64,000 bases of DNA, taken from contig CBDCTK010000002.1 in assembly GCA_965222225.1 (NCBI GenBank), positions 2,688,001 to 2,752,000 on the forward strand, in the 5' to 3' direction. Positions 5,778 to 21,487 of this stretch are shown here, in pieces. Below the pieces are notes generated by a model. It worked only from the letters and a program-made list of their open reading frames with translations, searched no databases and was not told the DNA's origin. The position numbers and the translations under genes were made by a program. Origin of the DNA: Candidatus Poribacteria bacterium (GTDB lineage: Bacteria > Poribacteria > WGA-4E > JAJDTR01). Position 1 is the stretch's first letter. Each line of letters opens with the position of its first letter.

Positions 5778-6040
5778 AGTGCGTATATATTGCACTCTGG
5801 GATGGTATAATAGCGGGAGATTGAGTCAAGAAACGAGTTTTTTGGAAGACCTCGGTTTCTTCGGTATTCGCTTGTCTGTTTCTCGGTAAAATTGTATCGG
5901 TGGAGAGTTGGATTTCGGATATATGAAGCAAAACGAGAACCTCGAATGCAATCCGAATTCTAGGCTTTATTCGTAATTTTCAGTTCAACCCAACCTACGG
6001 CATGATGCAGTTTTTCTTATTATTTCACTTCACACGGATA

Positions 6041-6180
6041 GCGATCAGGATTTACTATGGGAGTTCTATCAAGACTTTCTATCGGGATTTACTATCGCAC
6101 TCATTAGCCATTCGCTTGATCCCTCATTATCCACTCGGTTGAGGGATTTGCTATCGCGCTCCCTATCCGGTCGCTTGATC
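6041..6180 (-). repeat. Cluster of hairpin micro-elements upstream of cas6
   Basis: Three reverse-oriented units (CTATCGC-N17-TTGATC or truncated) plus orphan tails. Confidence 0.85.
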
Positions 6181-6225
6181 GCGGATGAAAAGCAGGCAAT
6201 TTGATTTTCGATCGAGGATAAAATA

Positions 6226-7164
6226 ATGACACAACTTCAAAACTTTCGACTGGCGCGCTACCGACTGACGCTGACGGCGTTGTCAACGATTACGATGCCG
6301 CCTTACGCCGGCTCGACGCTGCGGGGCGGGTTCGGTCATGCCTTCCGAAAGATGGTGTGCACTCAGGGACCAATCGACTGCCGGGACTGCACGCTCAACG
6401 CGGTCTGCCCCTATCCGTACATCTTCGAGACGGCGCCGTTTGAGGGGGCGCAGCAGTTGCGAACCTACGGCGATGTGCCGAGACCGTTTGTCATTGATCC
6501 GTTGGATACGCGGGGCGAATACCGCAGAGGCGAATCGTTCTCGTTTCAACTCACGCTCATCGGGCGCGCTATCGATTATCTCCCCTATTTTTTGGTTAGC
6601 TTCCGCGAACTGGGGGAAATGGGGATTGGCAAGGGACGCGGGCGATTCCAGTTGGCGCATGTCCGCACGGATGACGGGGAATCAATCTACGACGGCGATA
6701 CGCAGATGGTGCACAATCTCGATAACGCTCGGAGTTTCGACGATATCCAACGGGAAACGGAATCACAAAAGACGGACGAGTTGACGCTGCGGCTGCTCAC
6801 GCCGACACGCATCACGCACGAAGGGGCGCTGACGGATCAACTGCCGTTTCACGTGTTCTGGCGTAGGCTCATCGGACGGATCTCGGCGTTGGCGTATTTC
6901 CACTGCGGCGAATCGTTGGAGATGGATTTCAAGGGGCTAATCGAAAAGGCGACGAGTGTCGAGATGACGGATTCGACGCTGCGCTGGAAGGATTGGACGC
7001 GGTATTCGTCTCGGCAGGACCGGAAGATGCAGCTCGGGGGGTTGGTGGGGCACGCCACGTATGCCGGGGATTTGGAGGCGTTCGTTCCGTTCGCGGCGTT
7101 GGGCGCGTATCTGCATGTGGGGAAGAATGCGACGTTTGGGTTGGGGAAGTATAGGGTGGAGTGA
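6226..7164 (+). CDS. cas6: CRISPR pre-crRNA endoribonuclease Cas6
   Basis: GSTLRGGFGHAF, CxxC..C..CPY, and C-terminal G-rich loop HVGKNATFGLG. Confidence 0.92.
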   Translation: MTQLQNFRLARYRLTLTALSTITMPPYAGSTLRGGFGHAFRKMVCTQGPIDCRDCTLNAVCPYPYIFETAPFEGAQQLRTYGDVPRPFVIDPLDTRGEYRRGESFSFQLTLIGRAIDYLPYFLVSFRELGEMGIGKGRGRFQLAHVRTDDGESIYDGDTQMVHNLDNARSFDDIQRETESQKTDELTLRLLTPTRITHEGALTDQLPFHVFWRRLIGRISALAYFHCGESLEMDFKGLIEKATSVEMTDSTLRWKDWTRYSSRQDRKMQLGGLVGHATYAGDLEAFVPFAALGAYLHVGKNATFGLGKYRVE

Positions 7165-7173
7165 GGTTTTGTA

Positions 7174-9615
7174 ATGTCTAATTTTGAGAGAGACGAACAG
7201 TATTGGGATAGCCACTTTAAGAACATGTTTGGCGAAGTATTTGTTCCCTTTGAGTTTCAACGCAAGGTAGCAGAACATCTTCTAAGCGGACGAAATGTGA
7301 TTTTACAAGCCCCAACAGGAGCTGGCAAAACGAAAGCCGCTTTGTTTCCGTACTTGTTGGCTCAACAGGAAAATATACAATTTCCTCGAAAGTTGATTTA
7401 CACTACTCCTATGCGAGTCTTGGCAAAGAACTTTCACACCGATTTCAAAGAATCACCAATAGGGCAACAGACGTGCCTCAAAGCGGAAATCCAGACGGGT
7501 GAAAATCAAGATGACCGTCAATTTCGTAGCGACCTGATTTTCACGACTATCGATCAGGTGTTGAGTAGTTTTCTTAACATCCCGTACGCGCTGGGGTTGC
7601 GTCAAGGTAACGTCAACGCTGGCGCAGTCGTCGGCGCGTATTTAGTTTTTGATGAATTTCACTTATTCGATCCTGATACCTCGTTGGGAACTGTGATTGA
7701 AATCCTGAAGATGCTCAACGGTATCACGCCGTTTTTACTAATGACTGCCACTTTTTCAGAGGTGCTTCTTGAGCGTTTGAGCGAATACTTTAACGCGGAA
7801 ATCGTGCCAGTGACAGAGGCTGAACTTAAACAAATCCCTTCTCAGCAAGGAAAACGCCGTGAGTATCGGGTTAGCGGGGGAACACTTTCGGAGAACGTAG
7901 ACACGATTATTGCGCAACATCAACAACGCAGTATCATTATCTGCAATACGGTGAAACGGGCTCAGAATATGTTTCAATCACTGCAGAGCAGTTCGCAGCG
8001 AGGTACTGATACGGAAGTATTACTTTTACACTCCCGTTTTCTGAAGGAACACCGAAAAGCCAAAGAGGACATGATACGCTGTCGTTTCAAACGAGACGCG
8101 GGACTCGACGATGTAATTTTGGTTGCGACGCAAGTGATTGAAGTTGGGCTAGACATTAGCTGTGAGAATCTGCACACAGAACTGGCTCCCGCAAGCGCAA
8201 TTTTACAGCGCGCGGGGCGGTGCGCGCGGTTTGAAAACGAATCTGGAACAGTGACAATCTATCCTATTCCACCTACGACCAACGGTTCACCAAATTATGC
8301 CCCTTATGATAAAGAAACTTGTGAAGCCACGATGGCGGCATTTCAACACCGAAACGGAGGTGTGCTAGGCTTTGTAGCAGAGCAAGAGGTTGTCAACGAA
8401 GTCCACCGCGAAAGCGATGAAAAAATTTTGGCAGGTATTGAGACACGCCCAATACGCAGTCGTATATCAGAAGCGATTTCTGGACAGGAACTAGGTCTTG
8501 CCCGTGAATTGATTCGCAAGGATGACTCGCGTATGTTGCTCGTACATGATGAACCCGAAACACTTGATAAGCCGTTTCGCGTTGAAGGTTTCAGCCTATA
8601 TCGCGGCACACTGTTTGGAGTGTGGGATGAGCTTCAACAGGCGGCGCAAGAAAAGGAGCTGGGTTGGTCTCTGAAGTATCCTAAGGAAATGGAAGACAAC
8701 TCGCCAAACAGTCGTACTACCATTGCCTATGAGTGGCATGAGGCAAAAGAAAAGAAAGACTTAGGTATTTCTCCACTGTTTGTAGTGCATCCAAAACTGG
8801 TTAAATACAATACCGAGATAGGTTTCTGTCTTGAAGCAGGGACGACACCTTGTCCACTAAGCGTACCTGACGATGAAACCACGCAAGAAGCTGACTGGGG
8901 CAAAGGCTACTATCGCGAGACATACACCGAACATATCCAACACCTGTTGAATGCATATCAATCTGGTCTAGCGACTGAACTAGATTACGCCGCCGCGCGG
9001 CTTGAACAGAAGTTGGAGGCATCTGAAGGCGCCGTCGATCGGGCAGTAAGGCTCTGCATTGCCCTCCATGATGTCGGGAAACTGACGGTTGGTTGGCAAG
9101 AATGGGCGCACAAATGGCAAAAAGAAATTGGTGAACCTGTCGATGAAAATTACATGGCGGCGCATACCGATTATGACCGTAGCAATCTTGCCATACGCGA
9201 AATAGAAAAGCAATTCCGCGTCAAAGTCAAACGGCCAGGACATGCTGTTGAAAGTGTTTGGGCGGTTGCACCACTGCTAGCAAGAGTCTTAGGCAAAGAA
9301 CAGAAAAATTTGGCGGAAGCCTGTTTCACTGCTATTGGACGACACCATGCACCGCGCGCAAAGGACTGTTCACCCTACACCCTGCACCCTTATGCGCCAT
9401 CTGAGATCGAAACGGTTCTAAAGAAGATAGGAAGTTTAGGGCAGGAGACTCAACGACACTTCGAATCCATCTGTAAGCACAAGGAACCTACAAAGCCTTT
9501 TTCCCATTTTGTCCAGCCGTCTAACACGCTTGCACTACTAACCTATTTCCTGATTGTGCGCGCTCTACGGCTTGCTGACCAAGAAGCAACCTCAAAAGTT
9601 AGCAGAAGGGAGTAA
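7174..9615 (+). CDS. cas3: Cas3 helicase with C-terminal HD nuclease domain
   Basis: APTGAGKT, DEFH, TAT, QRAGRCAR helicase motifs; C-terminal EHI...LHDVGK...HH...LADQ HD domain. Confidence 0.93.
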   Translation: MSNFERDEQYWDSHFKNMFGEVFVPFEFQRKVAEHLLSGRNVILQAPTGAGKTKAALFPYLLAQQENIQFPRKLIYTTPMRVLAKNFHTDFKESPIGQQTCLKAEIQTGENQDDRQFRSDLIFTTIDQVLSSFLNIPYALGLRQGNVNAGAVVGAYLVFDEFHLFDPDTSLGTVIEILKMLNGITPFLLMTATFSEVLLERLSEYFNAEIVPVTEAELKQIPSQQGKRREYRVSGGTLSENVDTIIAQHQQRSIIICNTVKRAQNMFQSLQSSSQRGTDTEVLLLHSRFLKEHRKAKEDMIRCRFKRDAGLDDVILVATQVIEVGLDISCENLHTELAPASAILQRAGRCARFENESGTVTIYPIPPTTNGSPNYAPYDKETCEATMAAFQHRNGGVLGFVAEQEVVNEVHRESDEKILAGIETRPIRSRISEAISGQELGLARELIRKDDSRMLLVHDEPETLDKPFRVEGFSLYRGTLFGVWDELQQAAQEKELGWSLKYPKEMEDNSPNSRTTIAYEWHEAKEKKDLGISPLFVVHPKLVKYNTEIGFCLEAGTTPCPLSVPDDETTQEADWGKGYYRETYTEHIQHLLNAYQSGLATELDYAAARLEQKLEASEGAVDRAVRLCIALHDVGKLTVGWQEWAHKWQKEIGEPVDENYMAAHTDYDRSNLAIREIEKQFRVKVKRPGHAVESVWAVAPLLARVLGKEQKNLAEACFTAIGRHHAPRAKDCSPYTLHPYAPSEIETVLKKIGSLGQETQRHFESICKHKEPTKPFSHFVQPSNTLALLTYFLIVRALRLADQEATSKVSRRE

Positions 9616-9621
9616 AAACCG

Positions 9622-11415
9622 ATGTACCAACAGACTTATTTCGTTGATAAGCCGACAGGCACATTTGCCGATGTTTGTTCAGCTTTCGGATTGGCAACTG
9701 TCCTAGACGAATTCTTACGACGTGCTCTCGGTGAACACAGTTTTCGCACTGTCAAAATAATGGATCAGGGGACGACGTACGCGATTGAACTCACCCCCAT
9801 AATGCAAGAAGAATGGGTCGAAAGTCCAAATTTCTTTTCCCCTATTCCCTTCATCAAGACAGGGAAAAATAGTGCAACGATGCCAGAGGAAATTTACAAG
9901 ATTGAATACGACGAAGAGAAACAGATTTACGATGAATATAGAGAAGCCCGTCGAATTCTGGGGCAAACGATTCATCGCGGCGGAAGCGAGAGCCAAGGCG
10001 ATGCCGCTTTACCGGACAAACCAAAACCCAACTATCCGGTTTGGCAGAAAATCAACATGATGTCGGGGATCAGTTCTTACAATGCTGCTGTGGGCAACTG
10101 GTTTGAAGCTCGTGGGGAATTCGCAGAGCTTCTCCATCTTCTTCTTGCACTTCACGCCACCACGCCTAATCCGGTTTCAGCCTGTGAGCAAGAATGGAAA
10201 AAACTCAAAAAGGCGGGGAATCTTTCTGGAAAAGACCGCTTGAATATGCTGCAAATATTCAACCCGAGTACCGGAAAAGGCCAAAACGCCACAAAAGCAA
10301 ACAGCTTGTCGATGGGTAACGTAAGCAACTTTTGGTTGTGCGAATACATAAAGATGGTCGGTTTCTACCGTTGCGCGTTACCACGATTCGTGTCAGTGAA
10401 ACCTGGCCAGCCACCGACGGACCGAAAAACCTTCGCATTAGCGCCTATCAACATGACACTTGCGGCGCACAACGACATTTTCAATAGCTTCCGTGACACA
10501 GTGAGAAGCAATTACGCAATAAAGTCTGACATCTTTGCGGCGCTCAACTACACACAATGCTTTCTGAAATACTCCGAAGAAGCTCAGGAATCTGATGACT
10601 TATGGGGTGACGGTCCCCATGACTTTGTCGCAGGAATGCACACCGCCTTTTATAAAGATCTCGGCAACTCGTCCGCCGTGATGAACCTTTCCTTTATCAA
10701 TCTACCACGCTGGATGAACGTTCAAGATATAGATGATGTGCAGATATACCGCGAGATGATAGCGGAACACCTGCAAATCATAGGAAGTTTAGAAGAGGAA
10801 CGGAGTGAAGGCTTTCAACTGCTCCAACACTATCGGGACTTCCTATCCGGTCACGATTTCACGGCGTTCTTTGAGTTCACAGCGAAATACCCAAACTACC
10901 TGCTTAATGCCTTAGCGAAGGAACATTTCTGGGTTAAGCCGTTGAGCGCAACTAATTTGAGGAGGTTACTCATGAGAAACGAAAAAAAACTCACGCCAAT
11001 TATCAAAAGCGAGGGTTTTCAAAATATCGCTAGAGCCATCCGCCAAAGCACCGTGACGCTACAGTATATGGCGAGAAGCGGAAACCCCCCGTATGACATT
11101 CGATATGGACTCGGACAAGAATTGCGACGCAAGGCGAACTATCCGGACGAGTTCATTCAGGAATTAGGTGATTTTCTACACTCTTTCAACGCGGAAAATG
11201 CCCGCGTAGCGGAAGTTTCATCCGAAAGGGACCGGCGGTTCCGGCGGAAAAGCGTCCGTGTAGATGACATCACCGAAATCGTTCAATTGATTGATGAACA
11301 CGGGGCCCAAACCGTCTGTCATTTGCTGCTAGCTTTCGGATACGCTTCTACCAGCCACGATGAGGCGCCGACAGACGATGCCACCTCCCACACCCAACAA
11401 GGAGAAGGAAAATGA
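9622..11415 (+). CDS. cas8: Type I Cascade large subunit (Cas8-like)
   Basis: 597 aa between cas3 and cas7; contains FNPSTGKGQN; assignment is mainly positional. Confidence 0.7.
   Translation: MYQQTYFVDKPTGTFADVCSAFGLATVLDEFLRRALGEHSFRTVKIMDQGTTYAIELTPIMQEEWVESPNFFSPIPFIKTGKNSATMPEEIYKIEYDEEKQIYDEYREARRILGQTIHRGGSESQGDAALPDKPKPNYPVWQKINMMSGISSYNAAVGNWFEARGEFAELLHLLLALHATTPNPVSACEQEWKKLKKAGNLSGKDRLNMLQIFNPSTGKGQNATKANSLSMGNVSNFWLCEYIKMVGFYRCALPRFVSVKPGQPPTDRKTFALAPINMTLAAHNDIFNSFRDTVRSNYAIKSDIFAALNYTQCFLKYSEEAQESDDLWGDGPHDFVAGMHTAFYKDLGNSSAVMNLSFINLPRWMNVQDIDDVQIYREMIAEHLQIIGSLEEERSEGFQLLQHYRDFLSGHDFTAFFEFTAKYPNYLLNALAKEHFWVKPLSATNLRRLLMRNEKKLTPIIKSEGFQNIARAIRQSTVTLQYMARSGNPPYDIRYGLGQELRRKANYPDEFIQELGDFLHSFNAENARVAEVSSERDRRFRRKSVRVDDITEIVQLIDEHGAQTVCHLLLAFGYASTSHDEAPTDDATSHTQQGEGK
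10972..11415 (+). CDS. Putative internally translated small subunit (Cas11), 147 aa, in frame with cas8
   Basis: GAGGAGG at 10959-10965 precedes the in-frame ATG 10972 (MRNEKKLTPII); predicted helical C-terminal region. Confidence 0.6.
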   Translation: MRNEKKLTPIIKSEGFQNIARAIRQSTVTLQYMARSGNPPYDIRYGLGQELRRKANYPDEFIQELGDFLHSFNAENARVAEVSSERDRRFRRKSVRVDDITEIVQLIDEHGAQTVCHLLLAFGYASTSHDEAPTDDATSHTQQGEGK

Positions 11416-12410
11416 GCGATAACAAAGCGGTTTATTCCCTCACCATCTGTGGTCAAGCCACAATTGATATGCACTCCCTCAACAACGAAGGAAGCGAGGG
11501 AAACCAGATTGCAACCCGAATGGTCAACGTCTACGATGAGGCGGGAAAACTCGCTGCCGTGAACGCAATTTCAGGCGATATGTTCAAACACATTCAAGCC
11601 GAACATCTGTTTCATCTGAGCAGAAATAGTGGACTGAAGCTATGTTCGGGGTGCCAAAGATTCAGTGCAAACCGTATCCTTGATGACGAGACTTTTGTCG
11701 ACAGCTTCGAAAAAAACACCCCCGACGAGGAGATAGTTGCAAAGATGGTGCAAATGTGTGCCATTGATGACGTTGAAGGCATTCTTGTTACAGCGAAGAA
11801 CAAATCCACGCCGCGCAAGTCGATTGTGGAGTTTGGTTGGGTCGTCGGCATACCCGAGTTGAACACGACAGATAACTACTTCCATGTCAAGTATGTGTCA
11901 GATAGTGGAGCACAAAACGCAGATGACAGCGACAGCGCTGATGGCGGTGGAGCTAATCTTGGACAGAACATCTTCCATCGTCCCGCGAATTCGGGGATTT
12001 ACGCAGTTGTCGCAGGGGTTGAGGTTTCACGGCTCGGTTTCAACGATATAAGTCAGGCTTATGCCATTGATGACCAGGAGCGAAATCAACGATACAAAAC
12101 GTTGATTGAGAGCCTACTTTGTACTTTTGTCGATCCAAACGGAGCCATGCGAAGTGCTCAGAATCCCCATCTCGTTAACTTTGAAGGGGTTGTCAGTCTA
12201 AGCACTAAGATTTTGCCCGCGCCAACAATCAGCCCGCTTAACGCCGAATATAAGGACGAAATCAGACGTGTTGCAGACGCGCTCAATCAGATTGAGACGG
12301 ACGCAATTGAACGCCACGAGTTTGACTCACTCGGCGGTTACGCTGAAGTGATGGCAAACCTTGCCAATACAACTGTACCTTTCAAAATCAGTTATAACGG
12401 AGGGAACTAA
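11412..12410 (+). CDS. cas7: Cas7 backbone subunit, DevR/Csa2-like
   Basis: MHSLNNEGSEGN, AISGDMFKH and RKSIVEFGW motifs. Confidence 0.88.
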   Translation: MSDNKAVYSLTICGQATIDMHSLNNEGSEGNQIATRMVNVYDEAGKLAAVNAISGDMFKHIQAEHLFHLSRNSGLKLCSGCQRFSANRILDDETFVDSFEKNTPDEEIVAKMVQMCAIDDVEGILVTAKNKSTPRKSIVEFGWVVGIPELNTTDNYFHVKYVSDSGAQNADDSDSADGGGANLGQNIFHRPANSGIYAVVAGVEVSRLGFNDISQAYAIDDQERNQRYKTLIESLLCTFVDPNGAMRSAQNPHLVNFEGVVSLSTKILPAPTISPLNAEYKDEIRRVADALNQIETDAIERHEFDSLGGYAEVMANLANTTVPFKISYNGGN

Positions 12411-12411
12411 A

Positions 12412-13113
12412 ATGTGGGTGTCAGCTACCTATAAGCCCGCCACGTTCTTTTCGCTCAAGCCAAGCAATGCTACATCGTCAGGCGGTAAAACGTTGTTAAC
12501 ACCAACGCCTTATGCGATAAAGATGGGGCTGTTAGATGCCGCTATACGCACATGTGGAATCAGTTACGGGGAGGAAGCATGGGAATGGATACGCGGCTTG
12601 TCATTCGCGGTACGTGTTCCCGACCGTGCGTTAGTTAACAACGTGTTCACGCGTATTCTGAAGCCTACTCGTTCTAAGGACAAGGACGGATACGATAGAA
12701 CTATCGGCTACCGCGAATATGTCCATTTCATTGGCGCCATGAAATTGGCATTTGAAATACAAAATGATTTGTTGGTTGATGCAAAGGGACAACAGTTGAA
12801 CAAACTTCTGCCTCACATCACATACTTGGGGAAACGTGGTGGATTCGTTCAATTAATTCCCCCGGTACAATCGCTTGAGACACTACCCGCTGACTTCACG
12901 CTTTTGAGTGAAAAAAGGGATACATGGCATATCCAAAGTCAGTTACAGCACTTGGACGATTGCGACGATGAGATGACTTTCGAGCAAGCCGATATTTACA
13001 GTGGGAAGAACGTTCGTGTTGGCAAGGAACGGCACACCTTTCTTGCCATGCTTCCCTATCGACTATTGAGATCGAGTCGTGGTTTTAGCGATTACGCGCG
13101 TCTGGACATCTGA
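12412..13113 (+). CDS. cas5: Cas5
   Basis: FFSLKP...TLLTPTPYAIKMGL N-terminal Cas5 motif and YLGKRGGF; ATG 12412 after GGAGG. Confidence 0.8.
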   Translation: MWVSATYKPATFFSLKPSNATSSGGKTLLTPTPYAIKMGLLDAAIRTCGISYGEEAWEWIRGLSFAVRVPDRALVNNVFTRILKPTRSKDKDGYDRTIGYREYVHFIGAMKLAFEIQNDLLVDAKGQQLNKLLPHITYLGKRGGFVQLIPPVQSLETLPADFTLLSEKRDTWHIQSQLQHLDDCDDEMTFEQADIYSGKNVRVGKERHTFLAMLPYRLLRSSRGFSDYARLDI

Positions 13114-13123
13114 TTTTCTGTAT

Positions 13124-13200
13124 TAACGATGTGCTTCCATATACGCCCGCAAAGATATGGCGTGCTTAGGAATCACGACGTGGGAGTCTATCCGAGGCGT
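13124..13200 (-). pseudogene. Internally deleted BrnA-antitoxin remnant
   Basis: Reads ...VVIPKHAISLRAYMEAHR*, a fusion of the ISLR and LRAYMEA parts of the brnA copy at 14119-14473. Confidence 0.55.
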
Positions 13201-13211
13201 TGTAGGGGCAA

Positions 13212-14000
13212 TTAGTTGCTTGCTACTATCACGAGCACGAGAACAAAAGTCACAGCCATGAATCCCGCAATTACGAAACCAACCTCCCTTGGTTGTTCTG
13301 GAGGGGCGATTGCGGGCGTCGGAGGTGGTGGCGGTGGGCGGCCAAAAGTGACACCATTTTCAATTGCCTCGCCTTGCAGCATTACCATAATGGTTTCCGT
13401 AGTAGCGGGGTAGTATTGTATCCAGTGCGTTGACACCCCGGCCGGCAGGGACGTGGGATCAAAACTGTCGTAGTACAGATCGTAGGGCAGAGCTTCCTTG
13501 CGATGAAATTCAGTGATAATTGCACCGTGTTCGTAGGAACGATACGCATTAACCACCGCGGTAAGGATGTTTTCAGCCAAGGAATCTCCGTAGCTCTGAA
13601 GGGGTGTAGTGAGTCGGTCAATCTGTGCGCCTTCGCGCAAAGGTCCACCGTAGAACTTATACATCACATGGTCTAAGGGCAGGGGCTTTACGATTGAATT
13701 TGAAGCGTTAATAACCTGAATCGGGTTCAATCCTAACTCGTATGTGTCCTTGGTTTCATTCCGGCAGGAGGCGCCAATTCCAATGATGGCATTACTCGGA
13801 TTCCCAACTTGCCGGAATTCCGTGCAAATCAGTCCAAAGGTTAAGTCATGCGTCTCCAGCTTGCCAAGTTCTTGCATTCCTGTGTTCGATTCGTTTGGCA
13901 ACGTCCAAAGTTGCGATTGCCACTGTTTTACGTAGGGAGTGGAGCAGCCGATAGTTATAAGGGGAGTTACGAGTAAAATCAGTAGCGATATCCGTCCCAT
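13212..14000 (-). CDS. Putative lipoprotein with Pro-rich linker and C-terminal TM helix
   Basis: Hydrophobic N-terminus ending ITIG-C; PPPPPPTPAIAPP; hydrophobic C-terminus. Confidence 0.7.
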   Translation of the reverse strand: MGRISLLILLVTPLITIGCSTPYVKQWQSQLWTLPNESNTGMQELGKLETHDLTFGLICTEFRQVGNPSNAIIGIGASCRNETKDTYELGLNPIQVINASNSIVKPLPLDHVMYKFYGGPLREGAQIDRLTTPLQSYGDSLAENILTAVVNAYRSYEHGAIITEFHRKEALPYDLYYDSFDPTSLPAGVSTHWIQYYPATTETIMVMLQGEAIENGVTFGRPPPPPPTPAIAPPEQPREVGFVIAGFMAVTFVLVLVIVASN

Positions 14001-14118
14001 AGAATTCTCCTGGTGTTTGGTGGGTCACTAGCAGAGTAAATGTATAGTGCGCCAATCCTTAGGTTGTGTTATGGTTTCCAATCTTCAGCATGCGCTAACG
14101 GAATGAAAGGAGCAATTC

Positions 14119-14473
14119 CTAACGCTGCGCTTCCATGTACGCCCGCAAAACGGCGTTCATGCGGGTCTGGTAACCTCGACCTTGGGATTTAAACCACGCG
14201 AGTACGTCACTATCAGGGATTTCTATCGCACTCCTTATTCAGTCGCTTGATCGCAGGGAGATGGCGTGTTTGGGTTGGGGTATCACGACTTGGGCGTCTT
14301 TCCAGAATGCTTCATCGGTGGGTTGGGCGTCGGGGTCGGATGCCGCTGCTTCATCAATCTCTGCCTCGGTCACTGTGGAATTTCTATCGCACTCGTTATC
14401 CACTCGTTTGATCTGTTTGTGTGTCGTCGGGGACGTTATCGGAACTGTTGTCAGAGTAGGTGGTAACAGACAT
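14119..14473 (-). pseudogene. brnA: BrnA-family antitoxin interrupted by two 37-nt hairpin micro-elements
   Basis: Removing 14377-14413 and 14216-14252 gives MSVTT...DTQT/TVTEAEIDEAAASDPDAQPTDEAFWKDAQVVIPQPKHAISLR/DSDVLAWFKSQGRGYQTRMNAVLRAYMEAQR*. Confidence 0.82.
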
Positions 14474-14475
14474 GG

Positions 14476-14757
14476 CTAATCCAGGTGATAACCGAATTCT
14501 TCGGTGAGGATGCGCTTCTCTTCTTCCGTGTCGGCCTCGACGATGTCTTTATGGAGGACATAGTAGTGCGTTGCTTCAAGGGCAACTTCAAGCGGCAACC
14601 CGAAGTTCCTAGCCGTTCCCTCAAGTGTCTCGTGTTCGGTGCGCATGGAGGCGATAAGGTGCCAAACGGTCATGTTCCTGCCCTTTATCCAGACCTGCCG
14701 CCGCCAGTTTTTGGGACGGGCTTCAAGATATTTGCAGGTTTTGCAGCGTTGGCACAT
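14476..14757 (-). CDS. DUF433-like antitoxin/HTH protein
   Basis: WRRQVWIKGRNMTVWHLI...ARNFGLPLEVALEATHYY pattern. Confidence 0.65.
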   Translation of the reverse strand: MCQRCKTCKYLEARPKNWRRQVWIKGRNMTVWHLIASMRTEHETLEGTARNFGLPLEVALEATHYYVLHKDIVEADTEEEKRILTEEFGYHLD

Positions 14758-15002
14758 AATTTGGGAGCCTCTGAATCAATCTTTGTCACGGAAATTACCT
14801 CACTGTAGGAGCGATCAAGTAAGCGAATAGCGCACGCGATAGAGATCTTCTCCAGGTCGCGATTCCCTACTAAATTATATCCGAAATTCAAGGTTCACGC
14901 AAGGATTTAGACCGCCCCGTATGCATGTCTCTGAAAGAAACCGAGTTTTGTGGAAAAAACTCGGTTTCGTTGAACGTCCGTTACTCCTGTAGGAGGAAGA
15001 AA

Positions 15003-16112
15003 ATGAACCAACTCACTATCTCGGACTACGGTACATCTCTCGGCAAACGCTCGGAGCGCGTCAGCGTGCGGTACCGCGGGGTGGCGCGAGAGAAAGAGGA
15101 GCACGCTCTCATGGATCTGGATCAGATTGTCATCGCCTCGCGCGGGGTTAGCTTGTCGTCAGACTTGATTGAAGCCTGCACCGAGCGCGGGATCGAAATC
15201 TCGTTTCTCAGTTTCAGCGGCAAACCGTACGCCAAACTCAACAGCCCTTCGTTGACGGCGACCGTCATCTCGCGGCGCGAGCAACTCGCCGCCTATCACG
15301 ATGAGCGCGGGGTAGAGATTGCCAAGCGGTTCGCGGCGGGCAAGTTGCGGAATCAGATAAACCTGGTGCGCTATTTCGGCAAGTACCGCAAGAAAAGCGC
15401 GCCCAAGAGGTACGACGAACTGGCGGAGCGGGTTACCAAGATTGAGGGACTGATGGGAGATATTCGTGCCCTTCAAGCGCCGAAGGATGAAGGCAACGGG
15501 GTGTCGCCGATTGACGCCGCCCGCCCGACGTTGCTCAACCTTGAGGGGCGGGCGGGGGCGCTCTACTGGGAGTGCGTGCAACGGCTGCTGCCTGCGGGGC
15601 GATTCACGACACGTGAACATCAGGGCGCTGCCGATGATGTCAATTCGCTGCTCAACTACGGATACGGGATACTCTACTCGCAGGTTTGGAGCGCACTCTC
15701 GCTGGCTGGACTGGAACCTTTTGCGGGTTTTCTTCATGTCGATCGCCCCGGCAAACCGTCGCTGGTGTTGGATTTCATTGAGGAGTTCCGCCAACCGATT
15801 GTTGATCGGGTGGTGTTTGCGATGATTAACAAGAAATTCAGGGTTGAATGGGATGAGCCGGATGACGACGCCGCCAAATCCGCGCACCAGTCGGCAAAGC
15901 CGGAAGCGGATACCGACGTGCAGACGCAGCGGTATCTGAGCAAGGGCACGCGGCGTGCGCTCGCCGACCGGGTGTTGGAACGGCTTCAGGAGACGGAGCG
16001 GTTCGAGCGAAAAGACCAGAAGTTGTGCAATATCATCCAAATTCAGGCGCGTCATCTGGCGATGTTCCTGCGCGGGGAGAGGGATTATCAGTCATTTGTC
16101 TGTAGTTGGTGA
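15003..16112 (+). CDS. cas1: Cas1 integrase
   Basis: LEGRAGALYW, NSLLNYGYGILY, GFLHVDRPGKPSLVLDFIEEFR; GGAGG before ATG 15003. Confidence 0.96.
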   Translation: MNQLTISDYGTSLGKRSERVSVRYRGVAREKEEHALMDLDQIVIASRGVSLSSDLIEACTERGIEISFLSFSGKPYAKLNSPSLTATVISRREQLAAYHDERGVEIAKRFAAGKLRNQINLVRYFGKYRKKSAPKRYDELAERVTKIEGLMGDIRALQAPKDEGNGVSPIDAARPTLLNLEGRAGALYWECVQRLLPAGRFTTREHQGAADDVNSLLNYGYGILYSQVWSALSLAGLEPFAGFLHVDRPGKPSLVLDFIEEFRQPIVDRVVFAMINKKFRVEWDEPDDDAAKSAHQSAKPEADTDVQTQRYLSKGTRRALADRVLERLQETERFERKDQKLCNIIQIQARHLAMFLRGERDYQSFVCSW

Positions 16113-16263
16113 GGGGCGGGAAACCGATCAACCGAGTGGATAACGAGCAGGATAAACTATCGCCTTCGCTATTCGCTCAGTTGATCGATAGAGATCCTTT
16201 TTTTCTTGAAAACTCGGTTTCTGCTGACCACTAGTCACTGAGCACTGGCAACTGTGTTTTGCC

Positions 16264-16515
16264 ATGCACACGTACGTCATCTACGACATCGTCGAAGATC
16301 GAATCCGCAAGAAGATTGCGGATGTGTGCCTCGACTACGGCTTGAAGCGGTTTCAATACAGCGCTTTCTTGGGTGACATCAACACAACGCGACGCCGGGC
16401 GTTGGATGCAAAACTAACGCAGGAATTTGGGGACGCGGAGGGAAAGATTGAAGTCCTCTCCGTGTGCGCGAAAGATTTCGACCAACGCATTGTTATCGGA
16501 GACGCCGAAAGATGA
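16264..16515 (+). CDS. cas2: Cas2
   Basis: YVIYDIVEDRIRKKIADVCLDYGLKRFQYSAF. Confidence 0.95.
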   Translation: MHTYVIYDIVEDRIRKKIADVCLDYGLKRFQYSAFLGDINTTRRRALDAKLTQEFGDAEGKIEVLSVCAKDFDQRIVIGDAER

Positions 16516-17084
16516 ATATACGGGTCAGCGACATCAAGCAGTACTTCTACTGTCCGCGCGTGGTCTACCACACCTACTTCACTCCGGTGCACCGTCCGAC
16601 GACGCATCCGATGGAACTCGGCGCCCTCGAACACGAGGTATTGAGCGTCTTGGAGCGCCGCCGGACGCTTGCCCGCTACGGGCTTGAGGCTGGCAGCCGG
16701 AAATTCCACGTTTCGCTTCATGCCGAGTCGCTGGGATTGACCGGCGTGCTTGACCTGCTTATCGAGACCGAAGCCGGGGCGTTTCCCGTGGAGTTCAAGA
16801 GCACGAGACAACGACTCGACCTGAACGCGAAATGCCAGTTGACAGCGTACGCGATGATGGTGGAGGAGTGCCTCGGCGTCACGGTGGCTCAAGGGTTTAT
16901 CTATCGGATTCCCACGGAGCGAATCACGCCGGTGACGATTTCGGAGGGGCTGCGTGAGAAAACGCGCGGCGCGATTCGGGATATCCGACGAATGCTGTCG
17001 GAGGAGTGGATGCCTCCGCCAACGCCACAGCGCGGGAAATGCGTCGAATGCGAATTTCGGCGATTCTGCGCGGATGTGTTGTGA
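16512..17084 (+). CDS. cas4: Cas4
   Basis: YCPR, GVLD..PVEFK, QLTAY and C-terminal CVECEFRRFC Fe-S cysteines. Confidence 0.93.
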   Translation: MNIRVSDIKQYFYCPRVVYHTYFTPVHRPTTHPMELGALEHEVLSVLERRRTLARYGLEAGSRKFHVSLHAESLGLTGVLDLLIETEAGAFPVEFKSTRQRLDLNAKCQLTAYAMMVEECLGVTVAQGFIYRIPTERITPVTISEGLREKTRGAIRDIRRMLSEEWMPPPTPQRGKCVECEFRRFCADVL

Positions 17085-17499
17085 GGCAGCCAACTAAAAT
17101 CGTTGTGTTTCGCAAATCCGTTTTCTGCGGAAAATGTGGGTCGATTTGCGAAATCTTTGTAAAAGCGTGAAACGCAGGCGGGACGCGAGATGCGCCTCTC
17201 TGTTCGCGGATAGTTGTGAATCTTGCGGAATGACGAGAGGGCTTTTCGCATTAATTTCACCCCTATTTTCGATAGACTGGGTCAAGGTTCTGCGTACTCC
17301 ATACGATGTTTGGGGACAAATCGGCTATTTTCGAAAATCCGCGCGTAAACCAGTCGAATACCCATGAACACTGAATTCTCAGCGCTTGTGCCGTTTGAAA
17401 TTGACAGGGCAACGCCGATGTGTCAAAATTACACGTATGATGTACAAACGCAGGTGGTTTCTGCGTTTGGAGGAGTTTCGGCTACTGATCGCGAGGTCG
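17085..17499 (+). promoter_or_regulatory. CRISPR leader
   Basis: Non-coding stretch between cas4 and the first repeat; TTGACA at 17401 with CAAAAT 17 nt downstream. Confidence 0.6.
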
Positions 17500-19958
17500 G
17501 TAGCAACCATTGCCGCGATGAAAAGCGGACTGAAAGTGACAAACGTTGGATAATATGTTATACTATACTAGCAACGTAGCAACCATTGCCGCGATGAAAA
17601 GCGGACTGAAAGTATCACGCATCATGGTAGGGATTTTTCTTTGTGCGTGTAGCAACCATTGCCGCGATGAAAAGCGGACTGAAAGGATACAAAGAAGAGC
17701 CAACCAAAAGAGACATCGTCCTCGTAGCAACCATTGCCCCGACGAAAAGGGGACTGAAAGGTCGAAGTGGGACGGATATATATTTGATTGGTTGAGTAGC
17801 AACCATTGCCCCGATGAAAAGGATCAAGCGACCGGACAGGGAGCGCGATAGCGTTCCGTCAAATGACCGATTAGGGAGCGCGATAGCAAGCATGTAAGAG
17901 TTATCTGGGCGCCAACAGCGGCACCTAGCTCACGTAGTTACCTTTGCTCGGATGAAAAGGAATGTCTTCAAGTGGGACAAGAAGATTTCTATCGCATTCG
18001 CTATTCGCTCATTTGATCCCCGACGAAAAGCGGACTGAAAGTGCTCAACGCGGATGTGCATATCGCTATTGAGCGCAGTAGCAACCATTGCCGCGATGAA
18101 AAGCGATCAAGCGAACGGATAGTGAGTGCGATAGAGATTCCATAGAGTTCCTTCAAGCGACCGGATAGGGAGCGATCAAAGGAATGAATAATGACTGCGA
18201 TAGAGATTTCATAGAGTTACCTCAAATGGAGTTACCTCAAGCGACCGATTAGGCAGTAAGGCTTTCTATCGCATTCGCTAATCGCTCATTTGATCCCCGA
18301 TGAAAAGCGATCAAGCGAACGGATAGTGAGTGCGATAGTAAATCCCGTGCGATAGAGATTCCATAGAGTTCCTTCAAGCGACCGATCAAAGGAATGAATA
18401 ATGACTGCGATAGAGTTCCGTCAAATGACCGATTAGGGAGCAGGGCTTTCTATCGCCTTCGCTAATCGCTCAGTTGATCCCCGATGAAAAGGATCAAGCG
18501 ACACCGGACAGGGAGCGATCAAAGGAATGAATAATGACTGCGATAGAGTTCCCATAGAGTTTCCGCAAGCGACCGATTAGGGAGCGGGCTTTTCTATCGC
18601 CTTCGCTATTCGCTCAGTTGATCCCCGACGAAAAGGATCAAGCGAACGGACAGTGAGCGCGATAGCAAGCATGTAAGAGTAATCTGGGCGCCAACAGCGG
18701 CACCTAGCTCACGTAGTTACCTTTGCTCGGATGAAAAGGAATGTCTTCAAGTGGGACAAGAAGATTTCTATCGCCTTCCCTAATCGCTCAGTATTCGTTC
18801 GGTTGATTGCTATTCGCTTGCTTGAGGGATAATCTATCGCGCTCCTTATTCAGTCGCTTGATCCCCGATGAAAAGGATCAAGGGAGCGAATAGCGACCGC
18901 GATAGCAAGCATGTAAGAGTTATCTAGGCGCCAACAGTGGCACCTAACTCACGTAGTTACCTTTGCTCGGATGAAAAGGAATGTCTTCAAGTGGGACAAG
19001 AAGATTTCTATCGCCTTCGCTAATCGCTCAGTATTCGTTCGGTTGATCGCTATTCGCTTGCTTGAGGGATAATCTATCGCGCTCCTTATTCAGTCGCTTG
19101 ATCCCCGATGAAAAGGGGACTGAAAGAGCGGCTAGTACCCTGCCGACCCGTAGGCTGCTTTTGTAGCAACCATTGCCCCGATGAAAAGCGGACTGAAAGG
19201 CCACTTGCAGTCAATGAGTAAGCATAGAAAGCCAGTAGCAACCATTGCCGCGATGAAAAGGGGACTGAAAGTCGTGATATGCGGCGCGGCTGGGATATTA
19301 CAAGCTGTAGCAACCATTGCCGCGATGAAAAGCGATCAAGCGAACGGATAGTGAGTGCGATAGTAAATCCCGTGCGATAGAGATTCCATAGAGTTCCTTC
19401 AAGCGACCGGACAGGAAGCAATCAAAGGAATGAATAATGACTGCGATAGAGATTTCATAGAGTTACCTCAAATGGAGTTCCCTCAAGCGACCGATTAGGC
19501 AGTAAGGCTTTCTATCGCATTCGCTAATCGCTCATTTGATCCCCGACGAAAAGGGGACTGAAAGGCCCAACCGTTAATCTCTTTAATCGGCTTAACGCCA
19601 GTAGCAACCATTGCCCCGACGAAAAGGGGACTGAAAGCGCGCAGCATCAACGATCTCCAGAGCGAGAAGTTGCGTAGCAACCATTGCCGCGATGAAAAGC
19701 GGACTGAAAGTCCATAAAAAGTTAGATGATTCCATACCAAAATTATAGTAGCAACCATTGCCCCGACGAAAAGGATCAAGGGAGCGAATAGCGACCGCGA
19801 TAGCAAGCATGTAAGAGTAATCTGGTCGCCAACAGCGGCACCTAGCTCACGTAGTTACCTTTGCTCGGATGAAAAGGAATGTCTTCAAGTGGGACAAGAA
19901 GATTTCTATCGCCTTCGCTAATCGCTCAGTTGATCCCCGACGAAAAGGGGGCTGAATG
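17500..19958 (+). CRISPR. CRISPR array, 37-bp repeat GTAGCAACCATTGCCSCGAYGAAAAGSGGACTGAAAG; 12 repeat positions, 11 spacers (35-39 bp); 4 repeats interrupted
   Basis: Repeats start at 17500, 17576, 17649, 17724, 17796*, 18078*, 19163, 19235, 19307*, 19601, 19674 and 19748* (* = interrupted); the last has a degenerate 3' end. Confidence 0.95.
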
Positions 19959-20839
19959 CTTCCTAATTCATCTTGCGCCATCTCAATTGAAATCTGCCCT
20001 GGATGAATCCGTCTATGAACGCAGATTAGATGCCATCTTCTTCAGTTCAATCCCCTCAAAATAGGCGAATCCCATTACGACGCCAATGAGATCGCCGCAA
20101 TTCAAAATTGAACCAAGCATGCTGCCGAAACCCCTTTGAGGTCGTAGGCAAGCGGTTCCCCATGCGCATCTGCCACAAACTGCGCCGCTGGCCCCAGCAC
20201 CTGCTGCCAACCAAAAGGAAACCGAATCCTATGTATGAATCGCGGCGGTTTTTAATTGACAACTCCACGCACGTATAGTATAATAGCGCCAACTCGGCGA
20301 TGCCGGTTAGAGATAGTCGCACACCTGTCGCTTCCGGTAATGAGCCGCCGAGAGGAAAATCCAATGTGTATTGTGTGCATTGCGTTCACCCGCGCATCCT
20401 CTAAATCTGTGCTATCAAAAGCTTCCACCGTCTTTGAAGAAGTGAACGCGCCTTCCGCGCATGGCGCTGAGTGTCAAACTTGTTCGCCTTTGCGCACGCT
20501 GTGTGACGCGAAATTAGTAATAAAACCTATGAGCAAATTGTCGAATCTGTGTCTAAACCGCTTTTCCGGTTCACCTGTTTTTGCCCCTTTTCCGCGTCGA
20601 ATTTGTCGGCACATGAGCGAATCTCGGTGGCATCCGGTCGCAGCGCCTGCCACTGTTTTTGGCAATTTTCGCAGTACGGCGGTGAACGAGGTAAAAGTTA
20701 TATTCGCAGTTTATCGCAGTTTATCGCACACTCAATCACGACGCCAAAACCATGTACGAAGCCACGCTACGACACGCTACGACGCAGTTCTCGAGTCGTA
20801 ACGCATTAACTGCGATACAGATTCCTCAAACCACTCTAG

Positions 20840-20985
20840 GATCAAGCGACCGATCAAAGGAATGAATAATGACTGCGATAGAGTTCCCTCAAGCGAGCGA
20901 TTAGCGAGTGCGATAGAGATCTTACTGCGATAGAAAATCCCGATAGTAGTTCCTGATAGAGCTCCCATGCGATAGTAGAGCCCGG
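20840..20985 (+). repeat. Nested hairpin micro-elements with stacked GCGATAG-tail remnants
   Basis: Three units followed by repeated (GCG)ATAG-tail fragments. Confidence 0.8.
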
Positions 20986-21487
20986 CGCGAGAGCATTCCT
21001 AATAAACCCTCCCCAAAAAATATCCACTAACCCCTGCTTTTTTCATTGACCACATTACACATGTATAATATGATGCCGACCAAACGGATATACCGATGAA
21101 TGAATACCGTACTCCCCGCATTGCCAAACTGTCCTGCTCGAACGGATTAGGTCTTCGTCTATGTGCGCACCGTGACTTGACCTTCAAAACAACGATCTTT
21201 TTCTCTTGTACCTATTTTGTACCTATTTGCCGGTAGGTGAACCCGCACTATCAATGAAAACTACTGAAGCAAACAATGTGAGCACCCTCTCGAAATCGCC
21301 GCTCCGTTCACATTCCTGTACCTCTTTCTGGTGCGGTATTTTTACAGAAAATAGGTACAACCACCGCCTAACCCACCCCAAATGGGTGCTGGATCAACTT
21401 TTTTGTACACGCATTCGATCAATCAGCTAAAATCAACCGACTGGATGGCGTGCAGGATTTTTATCGCAGTCGATGTCTGTTCCTTTA

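What the first reader, a model, noticed from the sequence alone, without database searches (positions are those of the whole stretch)
17796..19958. CRISPR repeats split at their hairpin by convergent micro-element cassettes
Seen: repeats 5, 6, 9 and 12 break after ...GAYGAAAAG(C) and resume at CCCGAYGAAAAG..., so the 12-13-nt hairpin core appears on both sides of each insert. Inserts are 17822-18018, 18105-19103, 19334-19541 and 19774-19935. Each cassette starts with a forward unit (GATCAA) and ends with a reverse unit (TTGATC), like terminal inverted repeats. The 1-kb insert is five cassettes separated by bare cores (18296, 18480, 18624, 18864). Cassette 18105-18295 is nearly identical to 19334-19541 despite different neighbouring spacers. 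None of the 11 remaining spacers is hit. Inference: either paired units move as a composite that targets the repeat stem and duplicates it, or independent hits on both stem arms were spread by repeat-to-repeat recombination (the flanking cores are not always identical). Either way this is a repeat-targeting array parasite that should alter Cas6 processing, and the array transcript could release unit-containing RNAs.
Basis: partly seen in the sequence, partly recalled or inferred. Interest (0 to 1): 0.87.

Follow-up and report, generated by a model that had tools for sequence, protein, structure and literature searches.

The report
Small hairpin elements split CRISPR repeats
Four of the twelve repeats of a CRISPR array are cut open at their hairpin loop by cassettes built from a tiny, very abundant hairpin-forming repeat, and the same cut recurs in related genomes, so these elements appear to home to the CRISPR repeat.

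Summary
The array (17500-19958, downstream of a type I cas operon) has 12 repeats. Repeats 5, 6, 9 and 12 are split after GAYGAAAAG(S) and resume at CCCGAYGAAAAG. They hold 8 cassettes, each bounded by a forward and a reverse copy of a 30-nt unit, and four bare cores separate the cassettes of repeat 6.

New here:
- The unit (about 780 copies) is a strand-specific hairpin with strong covariation, so it is REP-like.
- The same junction occurs in 11 of the 14 unit-bearing genomes of 41 relatives searched, in two genera.
- It is not seen in a genus that has the same repeat hairpin but no units.
- In 11 array loci there are 29 core-to-forward-unit junctions, and none of 224 spacer intervals is lengthened.
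- At least 7 different unit lineages abut the core.
- One cassette centre occurs only inside split repeats. It is 93-94% identical between two families whose neighbouring cas genes are 73-76% identical, so it moves horizontally.
- Cassettes are mosaics, so recombination also acts.

Most likely this is repeated, site-preferring insertion of REPIN-like doublets at the repeat hairpin, followed by recombination. The enzyme is unknown, and an IS200-like Y1 transposase is only a lead. Effects on Cas6 processing are untested.

The parts
6226..17084 (+). cas operon: cas6, cas3 (helicase+HD), cas8a-like, cas7 (DevR/Csa2), cas5a-like, an unknown minus-strand ORF, cas1, cas2, cas4
   Evidence: Pfam and PADLOC (Cas8a 220.8 bits, Cas5a 200.6 bits, Cas6 373 bits). 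The system is type I-A-like, not I-D.
17094..17499 (+). leader, with a promoter-like site at 17401-17429
   Evidence: One search finds TTGACA-17-CAAAAT with a TG. The same stretch is conserved in the leader of G004.
17500..19958 (+). CRISPR array: 12 repeats (8 intact, 4 split) and 11 spacers
   Evidence: Sub-threshold Rfam CRISPR-DR matches lie on the + strand.
17796..18041 (+). split repeat 5: left part 17796-17821, cassette c1 (type A) 17822-18018, right part 18019-18041
   Evidence: A contig with 0 differences crosses the left junction.
18078..19126 (+). split repeat 6: left part 18078-18104; cassettes c2 18105-18295, c3 18309-18479, c4 18492-18623 (type B) and c5 18636-18863, c6 18876-19103 (type A); bare cores at 18296, 18480, 18624, 18864; right part 19104-19126
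   Evidence: Contigs cross the core at 18624 and the right junction.
19307..19564 (+). split repeat 9: left part 19307-19333, cassette c7 (type B, a mosaic of c3-left and c2-right) 19334-19541, right part 19542-19564
19748..19958 (+). split terminal repeat 12: left part 19748-19773, cassette c8 (type A) 19774-19935, degenerate right part 19936-19958
   Evidence: RNA fold -72.5 kcal/mol, z -3.46.
19803..19906 (+). type A1 centre; other copies at 17886-17989, 18665-18768 and 18905-19008. It is found only inside split repeats and holds a degenerate repeat (GTAGTTACC..GGATGAAAAGG..)
   Evidence: One search finds matches in 3 of 159 genomes of the order, all inside split repeats. One search finds no other copy in the genome; 22 of 27 letters match the repeat, reached by 0 of 5000 shuffles.
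17822..17851 (+). example of the 30-nt unit GATCAA-NN-GA-NN-G-RATA-NN-GA-NN-GCGATAG, a hairpin
   Evidence: (779 copies; covariation), and for the fold.
5990..6192 (-). cluster of reverse units ending TTGATC|GCGGATGAAAAG, 34 nt upstream of the cas6 start: an orphan unit-plus-core junction
20832..20990 (+). cluster of forward units downstream of the array. The next 190 nt resemble, by eye, what follows the truncated last repeat of G003; no alignment was run

Best explanation
The array belongs to a type I, Cas6-processed CRISPR-Cas system. The host genome, its genus and one other genus of the order are colonised by a 30-nt, REP-like hairpin element.

Doublets of this element in inverted orientation resemble REPINs, with or without cargo. 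They have repeatedly been inserted, or copied in, at one point of the CRISPR repeat: between the hairpin loop and its 3' arm. The loop GAYGAAAAG ends up on both sides of the insert. On the right side, the 5' arm of the hairpin (CCCC) is rebuilt from the element's own GATCCCC end. The right half is therefore again a full Cas6 hairpin with its 8-nt handle.

Inserts accumulate in old, trailer-side repeats. Once present, they are shuffled, duplicated and collapsed by recombination between cassettes and between the short cores. This gives mosaics and tandem cassettes separated by bare cores.

One cassette type (A) carries a decayed piece of array and lives only in arrays. It has also moved between genomes.

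Shown: the anatomy, the recurrence, the site restriction, the hairpin nature of the unit, and the incongruent identity of cassette A.

Inferred: that the events are independent insertions. Also inferred is the joining mechanism, which could be an HUH/Y1 transposase acting on single-stranded hairpins, or template switching between two G4/C4-based hairpins. That processing of the downstream crRNA survives is likewise inferred.
For: Site restriction:
- In 11 loci there are 222 intact repeats, 24 left junctions, 12 right junctions and 5 bare cores.
- All junctions fall at the same nucleotide positions.
- None of 224 spacer intervals is lengthened.

Distribution:
- The unit is present in 14 of 41 relatives in large numbers (g1 10/10 including G000, g4 4/4). 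Two further copies occur in G010, and none in the other 26 genomes.
- Left junctions occur in 11 of those 14.
- In genus g6, 6 of 7 genomes have the same hairpin and handle, but g6 has no units and no right junction. One left-pattern hit in g6 (GAATCGA) was not inspected.

Independence of events: at least 7 forward-unit and at least 6 reverse-unit stem lineages, differing by paired changes, sit at the junctions.

The unit is a hairpin:
- Pairs 7-23, 8-22, 11-19 and 12-18 are standard in 740-755 of 779 copies.
- Mutual information is 0.47-1.22 for these pairs and at most 0.26 for all others.
- There are 317 G.U against 29 A.C pairs.

Mobility of cassette A: its centre is 93-94% identical between G000 and G015, while cas1 and cas2-cas4 are 76% and 73% identical. 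Congeners that are 83-89% identical in the cas genes carry a centre of the same type (shared CAAGCATGTAA start and AAGAAGATT end) that gave no match to A1.

Trailer bias of split repeats.

Right core always CCC.

Folds: the cassette arms pair, and the left CCCC pairs with the right GGGG. Bare cores form long hairpins with z about -6.

Y1 lead: 5 IS200-like hits in the genome. Two are flanked by a forward unit on the left and a reverse unit on the right.
Against: - No empty/filled pair with shared flanking spacers was found, so no single insertion event is directly documented.
- Related genomes are not independent, and trailer ends are inherited. Cassette A sits in the last (G000, G001, G009) or a trailer-side (G004) split repeat, which points to at least one old event.
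- Convergent doublets elsewhere in the genome (17) show no long flanking duplication.
- No cassette has a high-identity donor outside the array.
- The A-type centre has the same orientation in 12 of 12 copies. This fits recombination or an oriented mechanism, not a symmetric TIR transposon.
- Y1 homologues also occur in genera without units (g6 7/7, g3 5/10).
- The Y1 protein scores below the cut-off for the RAYT model (30.6 against 80).
- Five solitary copies of a related repeat elsewhere in the genome are not hit.
Confidence: 0.6

Rival explanations
1. One (or very few) ancient accident created a split repeat at the trailer end of the ancestral array. All other copies arose by homologous or short-homology recombination and gene conversion between repeats, and by recombination after DNA uptake for the copy in the other family. 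On this view there is no targeting by the element.
For: - Cassettes are mosaics: c7 = c3-left + c2-right, and c8 = c6-left + c3-right.
- Flanking cores and repeat variants are hybrid.
- The A-type centre is in the same orientation in 12 of 12 copies.
- Cassette A sits in the last (G000, G001, G009) or a trailer-side (G004) split repeat.
- The right core CCC in an all-CGC array (G015) is what a donor-derived tract would give.
- The cassettes have no donors outside arrays.
Against: - At least 7 different unit lineages abut the core at the left junction and at least 6 at the right.
- Type B cassettes and the g4 trailer junction share no centre with type A.
- The homology available is only 12-26 nt.
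- Orphan unit-plus-core junctions exist outside arrays.
Confidence: 0.25
2. The split repeats are kept because they are useful. The long cassette hairpins would act as processing or stability modules, or as a terminator for the pre-crRNA. Alternatively the bare cores and the decayed repeat in cassette A would act as Cas6-binding decoys that tune crRNA output.
For: - The A-type cassette persists across the genus, and its A1 centre is highly conserved between two families.
- The right halves keep a full Cas6 hairpin.
- The predicted hairpins are very stable.
- Contigs from an RNA library cover cassettes (X17: 19748-19912, 18847-18906, 18985-19103). DNA carry-over is not excluded.
Against: - No functional test was done.
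- Cassette content is very variable between genomes.
- Units are nested at random-looking places inside cassettes.
- Many arrays simply end in a half repeat plus unit, which looks like decay.
Confidence: 0.1
3. Assembly artefact: repeats of the unit family caused false joins inside the array.
For: The region is highly repetitive. No contig spans it, and many ambiguous graph joints are reported.
Against: - Contigs with 0 differences cross six unit-core junctions: four outer junctions and both sides of the bare core at 18624.
- The same architecture is seen in 10 other assemblies.
Confidence: 0.03

Closest known systems
IS and MITE insertions in CRISPR direct repeats
   Same: A non-autonomous element sits inside a repeat and splits an array. 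PMC4852346 (passages read) reports 59 CRISPRs with transposons in repeats, for example a 180-bp MITE with a 5-bp duplication in Microcystis, and IS110 copies in Thermoanaerobacter repeats. bioRxiv 10.1101/2020.04.14.041012 (passage read) reports a 134-nt MITE splitting an Anabaena array.
   Different: - One nucleotide position is hit again and again: 29 junctions in 11 genomes, by many unit lineages.
- The whole hairpin loop appears on both sides of the insert.
- The right arm is rebuilt by the element.
- Tandem cassettes are separated by bare loops.
- One cassette type exists only in arrays.
REP / REPIN elements with RAYT (Y1 HUH) transposases
   Same: - Hundreds of short imperfect-palindrome copies.
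- Inverted doublets that fold into long hairpins.
- A Y1 transposase gene flanked by inverted copies.
- Long persistence within a lineage.
Sources: PMC3116915 (passages read); the abstracts of PMC3733652 and PMC8266576 were seen in the listing.
   Different: - Most copies here are singlets.
- The GTAG tag is not at a fixed place.
- The Y1 protein fits the IS200 model rather than the RAYT model.
- Its homologues are also present where the unit is absent.
- No REP/REPIN insertion into CRISPR repeats appeared in the three literature searches run.
Small dispersed repeats (SDR) of cyanobacteria (Elhai et al. 2008, recalled and not read; cited as ref. 43 in PMC3116915)
   Same: Very small repeats that nest inside one another and inside other repeats, with no known transposase.
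   Different: This host has no photosystem reaction-centre gene. The unit has a different sequence. No link to CRISPR is known to me for SDRs (recalled).
IS200/IS605-type single-strand transposition
   Same: Hairpin-dependent, strand-specific and oriented. It joins the element's 5' end to the 3' side of a short target. The element's own end can resemble the target, which would allow tandem insertion (established knowledge, recalled).
   Different: Those elements carry both end hairpins on one strand. Here the two units are inverted. No TnpB or full-length element with these ends was found.

Membership tests
CRISPR array of a type I Cas6 system | Regularly spaced direct repeats next to cas1-cas2 and effector genes | tested here: met
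   Intact repeats are spaced 72-76 nt apart. The cas genes lie at 6226-17084.
CRISPR array of a type I Cas6 system | Repeat hairpin supported by covariation | tested here: met
   Both CCCC..GGGG and CCGC..GCGG occur. Six of 8 intact repeats here are of one or the other kind and 2 are hybrids. Both kinds are common in relatives. Fold energy alone is weak (z -1.3 to -1.7).
REP/REPIN-RAYT | Short imperfect palindrome at high copy number | tested here: met
   779 copies; hairpin with covariation.
REP/REPIN-RAYT | Conserved GTAG or CGTC tag at one end | tested here: inconclusive
   GTAG[GA] lies within 14 nt upstream in 148 of 779 copies, not at a fixed distance. Several doublets are flanked GTAGG..|..CCTAC.
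REP/REPIN-RAYT | RAYT gene flanked by inverted REPs | tested here: inconclusive
   Two of 5 Y1 hits are flanked by a forward unit on the left and a reverse unit on the right. The protein scores 65.8 bits on the IS200 model (cut-off 55) but 30.6 on the RAYT model (cut-off 80).
REP/REPIN-RAYT | Doublets (REPINs) as the main form | tested here: not met
   427 of 567 clusters are single units. There are 22 convergent doublets, 5 of them in the array.
REP/REPIN-RAYT | Transposase and repeat family co-distributed | tested here: not met
   Y1 homologues at E<=1e-10 occur in 25 of 41 genomes, including g6 7/7 and g3 5/10, which have no units.
MITE (cut-and-paste, TIR plus target duplication) | Terminal inverted repeats | tested here: met
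   All 8 cassettes start with a forward unit and end with a reverse unit, and the arms pair.
MITE (cut-and-paste, TIR plus target duplication) | Exact target-site duplication of fixed length | tested here: inconclusive
   A 12-nt core lies on both sides, but the right copy is always CCC.. even where the target is CGC.., and the Y and S positions differ in 2 of 4 repeats. No duplication of 7 nt or more occurs at any other convergent pair.
MITE (cut-and-paste, TIR plus target duplication) | Autonomous partner with the same ends | tested here: not met
   Among 154 forward..reverse pairs 0.6-4 kb apart, no flanking duplication longer than 7 nt occurs outside the array. Their content was not examined gene by gene.
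IS200/IS605 | Both end hairpins on the same strand, no inverted ends | tested here: not met
   The cassette ends are inverted copies.

The most novel reading that the evidence does not exclude
The proposal is a mobile element specialised on CRISPR arrays. REPIN-like doublets of a structured 30-nt hairpin would home to the repeat hairpin. The means would be a Y1/HUH enzyme that takes the GTAG-headed, hairpin-bearing CRISPR repeat for one of its own substrates, or hairpin-to-hairpin template switching.

One derivative, cassette A, carries a decayed repeat. It would live only inside arrays, spread from repeat to repeat, and cross between bacterial families. By rebuilding a Cas6 hairpin on its right side it would stay nearly harmless. 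Its bare cores and internal pseudo-repeat could nevertheless soak up Cas6 or yield unit-bearing RNAs.
Probability: 0.3. Interest if true: 0.75.

Novelty: new variant of a known kind. Interest (0 to 1): 0.6.

Why it matters
Transposons inside CRISPR repeats are known as sporadic accidents. Here a whole family of tiny hairpin elements hits one nucleotide position of the repeat again and again, in at least 11 genomes of two genera. One cassette exists nowhere but in arrays.

If the targeting is enzymatic, it provides a natural, defined target site for a REP-like element. The transposition mechanism and target choice of such elements are still poorly understood.

It would also show that CRISPR arrays can carry their own resident parasites.

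It further offers natural substrates for asking what a Cas6 enzyme tolerates: split repeats, bare loops with foreign stems, and a pseudo-repeat.

Tried and rejected
- Cyanobacterial origin or a type I-D system was my first guess from the repeat's shape. I rejected it: there is no Photo_RC gene, HIP1 is not enriched (117 found against about 86 expected), and PADLOC gives Cas8a/Cas5a.
- The genome-contig scan with the 5' half plus core returned one stretch (L001). It is a chance match inside a gene of a Rhodobacteraceae MAG, not an array.
- The cassette gave no match in plasmids or phages. The A1 29-mer was not found in metagenome or viral contigs.
- The junction 18-mer gave 36 metagenome stretches. 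None has a unit or a repeat half. Several clearly lie in coding sequence, and the word itself reads L-I-P-D-E-K.
- I looked for a long target duplication around convergent unit pairs elsewhere. None of 7 nt or more was found outside the array.
- I looked for a donor copy of any cassette elsewhere in the genome. The longest outside hits are 111-122 nt at 75-79% identity, and there are none for the A centre.
- I looked for other CRISPR arrays in this genome. A 16-mer spacing scan found only this array and two tandem-repeat regions. Five solitary copies of a related repeat are intact.
- Rfam gave only sub-threshold CRISPR-DR matches to intact repeats and nothing for the cassettes. Promoter- and terminator-like sites are no more frequent than in shuffles.
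- The joints reported when contigs were laid on the region have short sides (31 letters or fewer). They link homologous parts of different cassettes. I read them as assembly-graph ambiguity, not as variants. Parts without cover in the RNA library are not used as evidence.
- A model of independent single hits on both arms was rejected. It predicts 5'half|reverse unit..core..forward unit|3'half, which is never seen.
- Right-junction hits with one mismatch in G013, G020, G034 and G036, and left-pattern hits in G016, G019, G026, G032 and G035, were not inspected. These genomes have no units. I take them as chance matches without having checked.
- Supplementary files of PMC4852346 (its Figure S5 lists the 59 cases) could not be seen. 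A case like this one could be among them.
Full report
**What is there.** The window is G000:C2:2688001-2752000 of a 5.70-Mb genome in two contigs.

Upstream of the finding lies a cas operon on the + strand: cas6, a cas3 with helicase and HD domains, a large subunit, cas7 of the DevR/Csa2 kind, cas5, cas1, cas2 and cas4. PADLOC names the large subunit Cas8a (220.8 bits) and the cas5 Cas5a (200.6 bits). The system is therefore type I-A-like, not I-D as the shape of the repeat first suggested to me. The host is not a cyanobacterium, since no Photo_RC gene was found.

A leader with a promoter-like site at 17401-17429 precedes an array of 12 repeats at 17500-19958. The last repeat is degenerate, so the array reads on the + strand with its old end at 19958. 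The repeat hairpin comes in two compensating versions, CCCC..GGGG and CCGC..GCGG, plus two hybrids.

Repeats 5, 6, 9 and 12 are split.
- The left part ends GAYGAAAAG or GAYGAAAAGC.
- The insert starts GATCAA and ends TTGATC.
- The repeat resumes CCCGAYGAAAAG, then S, then GGACTGAAAG.
- Repeat 6 holds five cassettes separated by four bare cores.
- The two junction patterns occur 8 and 8 times in the genome, all in this array.
- All 11 spacer intervals have normal length.

Short contigs from public runs cross several junctions.
- In two samples of one study (X2, X3), contigs cover 17724-17850, 18598-18711 and 19087-19334 with 0 differences.
- In X2 alone, contigs also cover 19517-19630, 19682-19797 and 19909-20100. 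In X3 alone, a contig covers 19921-20100.
- Shorter pieces from a second study (X5) also fit.
- These runs may include the source sample, and none spans the array.

**What the inserts are made of.** The ends of every cassette are copies of a 30-nt unit: GATCAA, 17 letters, then SCGATAG. It occurs 759 to 779 times in the genome depending on the pattern used. It supplies the most over-represented 10-mers of the genome.

The unit is a hairpin.
- Positions 7-23, 8-22, 11-19 and 12-18 form standard pairs in 743, 740, 755 and 755 of 779 copies, with three or four pair types each.
- Mutual information is 0.84, 1.07, 1.22 and 0.47 for these pairs and at most 0.26 for every other pair of variable positions.
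- Between the paired positions lie invariant G.A/A.G mismatches.
- G.U pairs (317) far outnumber A.C (29), so one strand is the folding strand.

Units are mostly single (427 of 567 clusters). They nest inside other small repeats. They are often preceded by GTAGG a few letters upstream.

Seventeen convergent doublets exist outside the array, several flanked GTAGG..|..CCTAC. None has a flanking duplication of 7 nt or more. Divergent doublets with a short spacer occur only at the bare cores of the array.

**Two cassette types.**
- Type B (c2, c3, c4, c7) consists only of units and their tails.
- Type A (c1, c5, c6, c8) has a 104-nt centre with no other copy in the genome.
- That centre contains a degenerate repeat: 22 of 27 letters match in register, which 0 of 5000 shuffles reach.
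- Cassettes are mosaics of one another. For example, c7 has the left end of c3 and the right end of c2.

**Relatives.** I searched 41 genomes of the order.
- The unit is found in large numbers in all 10 genomes of genus g1 (373-1022 copies with a strict pattern) and in all 4 of genus g4 (126-154 copies).
- It occurs twice in G010 and not at all in the other 26 genomes.
- The 3' part of the repeat occurs in g1, g4 and g6.
- The right junction occurs in G000, G003, G004, G005, G009 and G015, and as orphans in G002 and G021.
- The left junction occurs in 11 of the 14 unit-bearing genomes.
- In g6, 6 of 7 genomes have the hairpin, but the genus has no units and no right junction. One left-pattern hit there was not inspected.

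In 11 array loci I counted 222 intact repeats, 24 left junctions, 12 right junctions and 5 bare cores. I also counted 224 spacer intervals of normal length and 5 long gaps. One gap is a degenerate repeat. The others are breaks between array pieces that I did not dissect. Three of the left junctions (G005a, which was not among the 11 loci, and two in G008) lack a recognisable 5' half and are orphans.

Split repeats sit at the trailer end in G001, G003, G005, G007, G009 and G021, and several arrays simply end in a half repeat plus forward unit.

At the left junction there are at least 7 unit lineages that differ by paired changes in the stems. At the right junction there are at least 6.

**Cassette A moves.** In a search of 159 genomes of the order, its centre occurs only inside split repeats: 4 times in G000, twice in G015 (93-94% identical) and once in part in G007.
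- G015 belongs to another family, and its repeat has a different 5' half.
- Its cas1 and cas2-cas4 are 76% and 73% identical to those of G000.
- Congeners that are 83-89% identical in these genes carry a centre of the same type (shared CAAGCATGTAA start and AAGAAGATT end) that gave no match to A1.
- The pseudo-repeat inside the G015 copy starts GTAG like the g1 repeat, not GTCT like G015's own.

The identity pattern is incongruent with descent and points to transfer into G015's array. The A-type centre is in the same orientation in all 12 copies seen.

**How it most likely works.** The insertion site is fixed, it is used by many unit lineages, and it is used only where units exist. This speaks for a real preference of the element for the repeat hairpin.

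A plain 12-nt target duplication does not fit. The right core always begins CCC, also in arrays whose repeats are all CGC. GGGGATCAA is a common natural context of the unit (CGGG precedes 46 copies). So the C-rich arm on the right is best read as the end of the reverse unit. What is truly duplicated is the loop, with one to three letters of microhomology on the left.

Two mechanisms would give this.
- A Y1/HUH enzyme could join the 5' end of the element to the 3' side of a hairpin on single-stranded DNA.
- A polymerase could switch from the repeat hairpin to a doublet whose base is also G4/C4, and then switch back.

For the first mechanism there is only a lead. The genome has five IS200-like Y1 hits, two of them flanked by a forward unit on the left and a reverse unit on the right. 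In g1, five of six orthologous loci have a unit within about 200 nt, while none of eight loci in other genera does. Against it, the protein family also occurs in genera without units, and the protein misses the RAYT model's cut-off.

After insertion, recombination between cassettes and between the 12-nt cores explains the mosaics. It can also explain the tandem cassettes with bare cores, by deletion of the spacers between two split repeats. Repeated insertion next to an element-borne core would give the same picture, and I cannot tell the two apart.

**Consequences for the array.** As RNA, the cassette arms pair, and the left CCCC pairs with the right GGGG (-72.5 kcal/mol, z -3.46). Bare cores with their units form hairpins of -33 to -34 kcal/mol (z about -6).

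The right half alone is a full hairpin plus handle in repeats 6, 9 and 12. In repeat 5 it carries one mismatch. The 5' processing of the next crRNA may therefore survive. Spacers 4, 5, 8 and 11 would carry long 3' tails until trimmed. None of this was tested.

Contigs of an RNA library cover 19748-19912 (8 differences), 18847-18906 and 18985-19103. That is compatible with transcription but does not show it.

**Comparison with what is known.** Transposons and MITEs in CRISPR repeats have been catalogued (PMC4852346, passages read; bioRxiv 10.1101/2020.04.14.041012, one passage read). REP and REPIN elements and their Y1 transposases are well described (PMC3116915, passages read).

Three full-text searches listed no paper whose title or abstract describes REP-like elements splitting CRISPR repeats.

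I file the finding as a new variant of a known kind. It is a repeat-hairpin-specific, recurrent invasion by a REP-like family, with an array-resident cassette that crosses family borders.

Noticed in passing
G000:C2:5054900-5059800 and C2:1309500-1310600 (outside the window; L009 covers the second): A conserved leader-like stretch of about 130 nt is followed by a single copy of a related repeat (GTTGCAGYCTATGCCCCGATGAAAAGGGGACTGAAAG). Small open reading frames come next, then further whole or decayed repeats. The repeats therefore flank genes rather than spacers.
   Followed up: partly
window 5990-6192: A cluster of reverse units ends TTGATC|GCGGATGAAAAG, 34 nt before the cas6 start codon. It is an orphan unit-plus-core junction in the cas6 promoter region.
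   Followed up: partly
window 19959-21180: By eye, the stretch from about 20990 to 21180 resembles what directly follows the truncated last repeat plus forward units in G003; no alignment was run. In G000, 870 nt lie between the array end and its own forward-unit cluster (20832-20990). They include a perfect TTGACA-17-TATAAT at 20256-20284.
   Followed up: no
window 16121-16201 and about 14933-14970: Two further dispersed repeats were seen. One is about 75 nt long, in the cas1-cas2 spacer. The other is about 37 nt long, at the start of cas1. Each has tens of copies at 78-100% identity in the five relatives searched (query positions 1197-1277 and 9-46).
   Followed up: no
window 21480-21720 and genome-wide: Other abundant small repeats were seen, such as the palindromic TTGTAGGGTGCGCACTGCGCACC.. 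and AGCCTGTTTGAAAAGTACA. Units are inserted at two symmetric TGC^GCAC sites of the palindrome.
   Followed up: partly
window 13212-14000 (- strand): A 262-aa ORF lies on the opposite strand between cas5 and cas1. It has no hit in Pfam, NCBIfam or PADLOC.
   Followed up: no
G000:C2:1547400-1547800: A minisatellite of about 20 copies of a 21-nt unit (CTTAACCACTCTSCACTGYCT).
   Followed up: no
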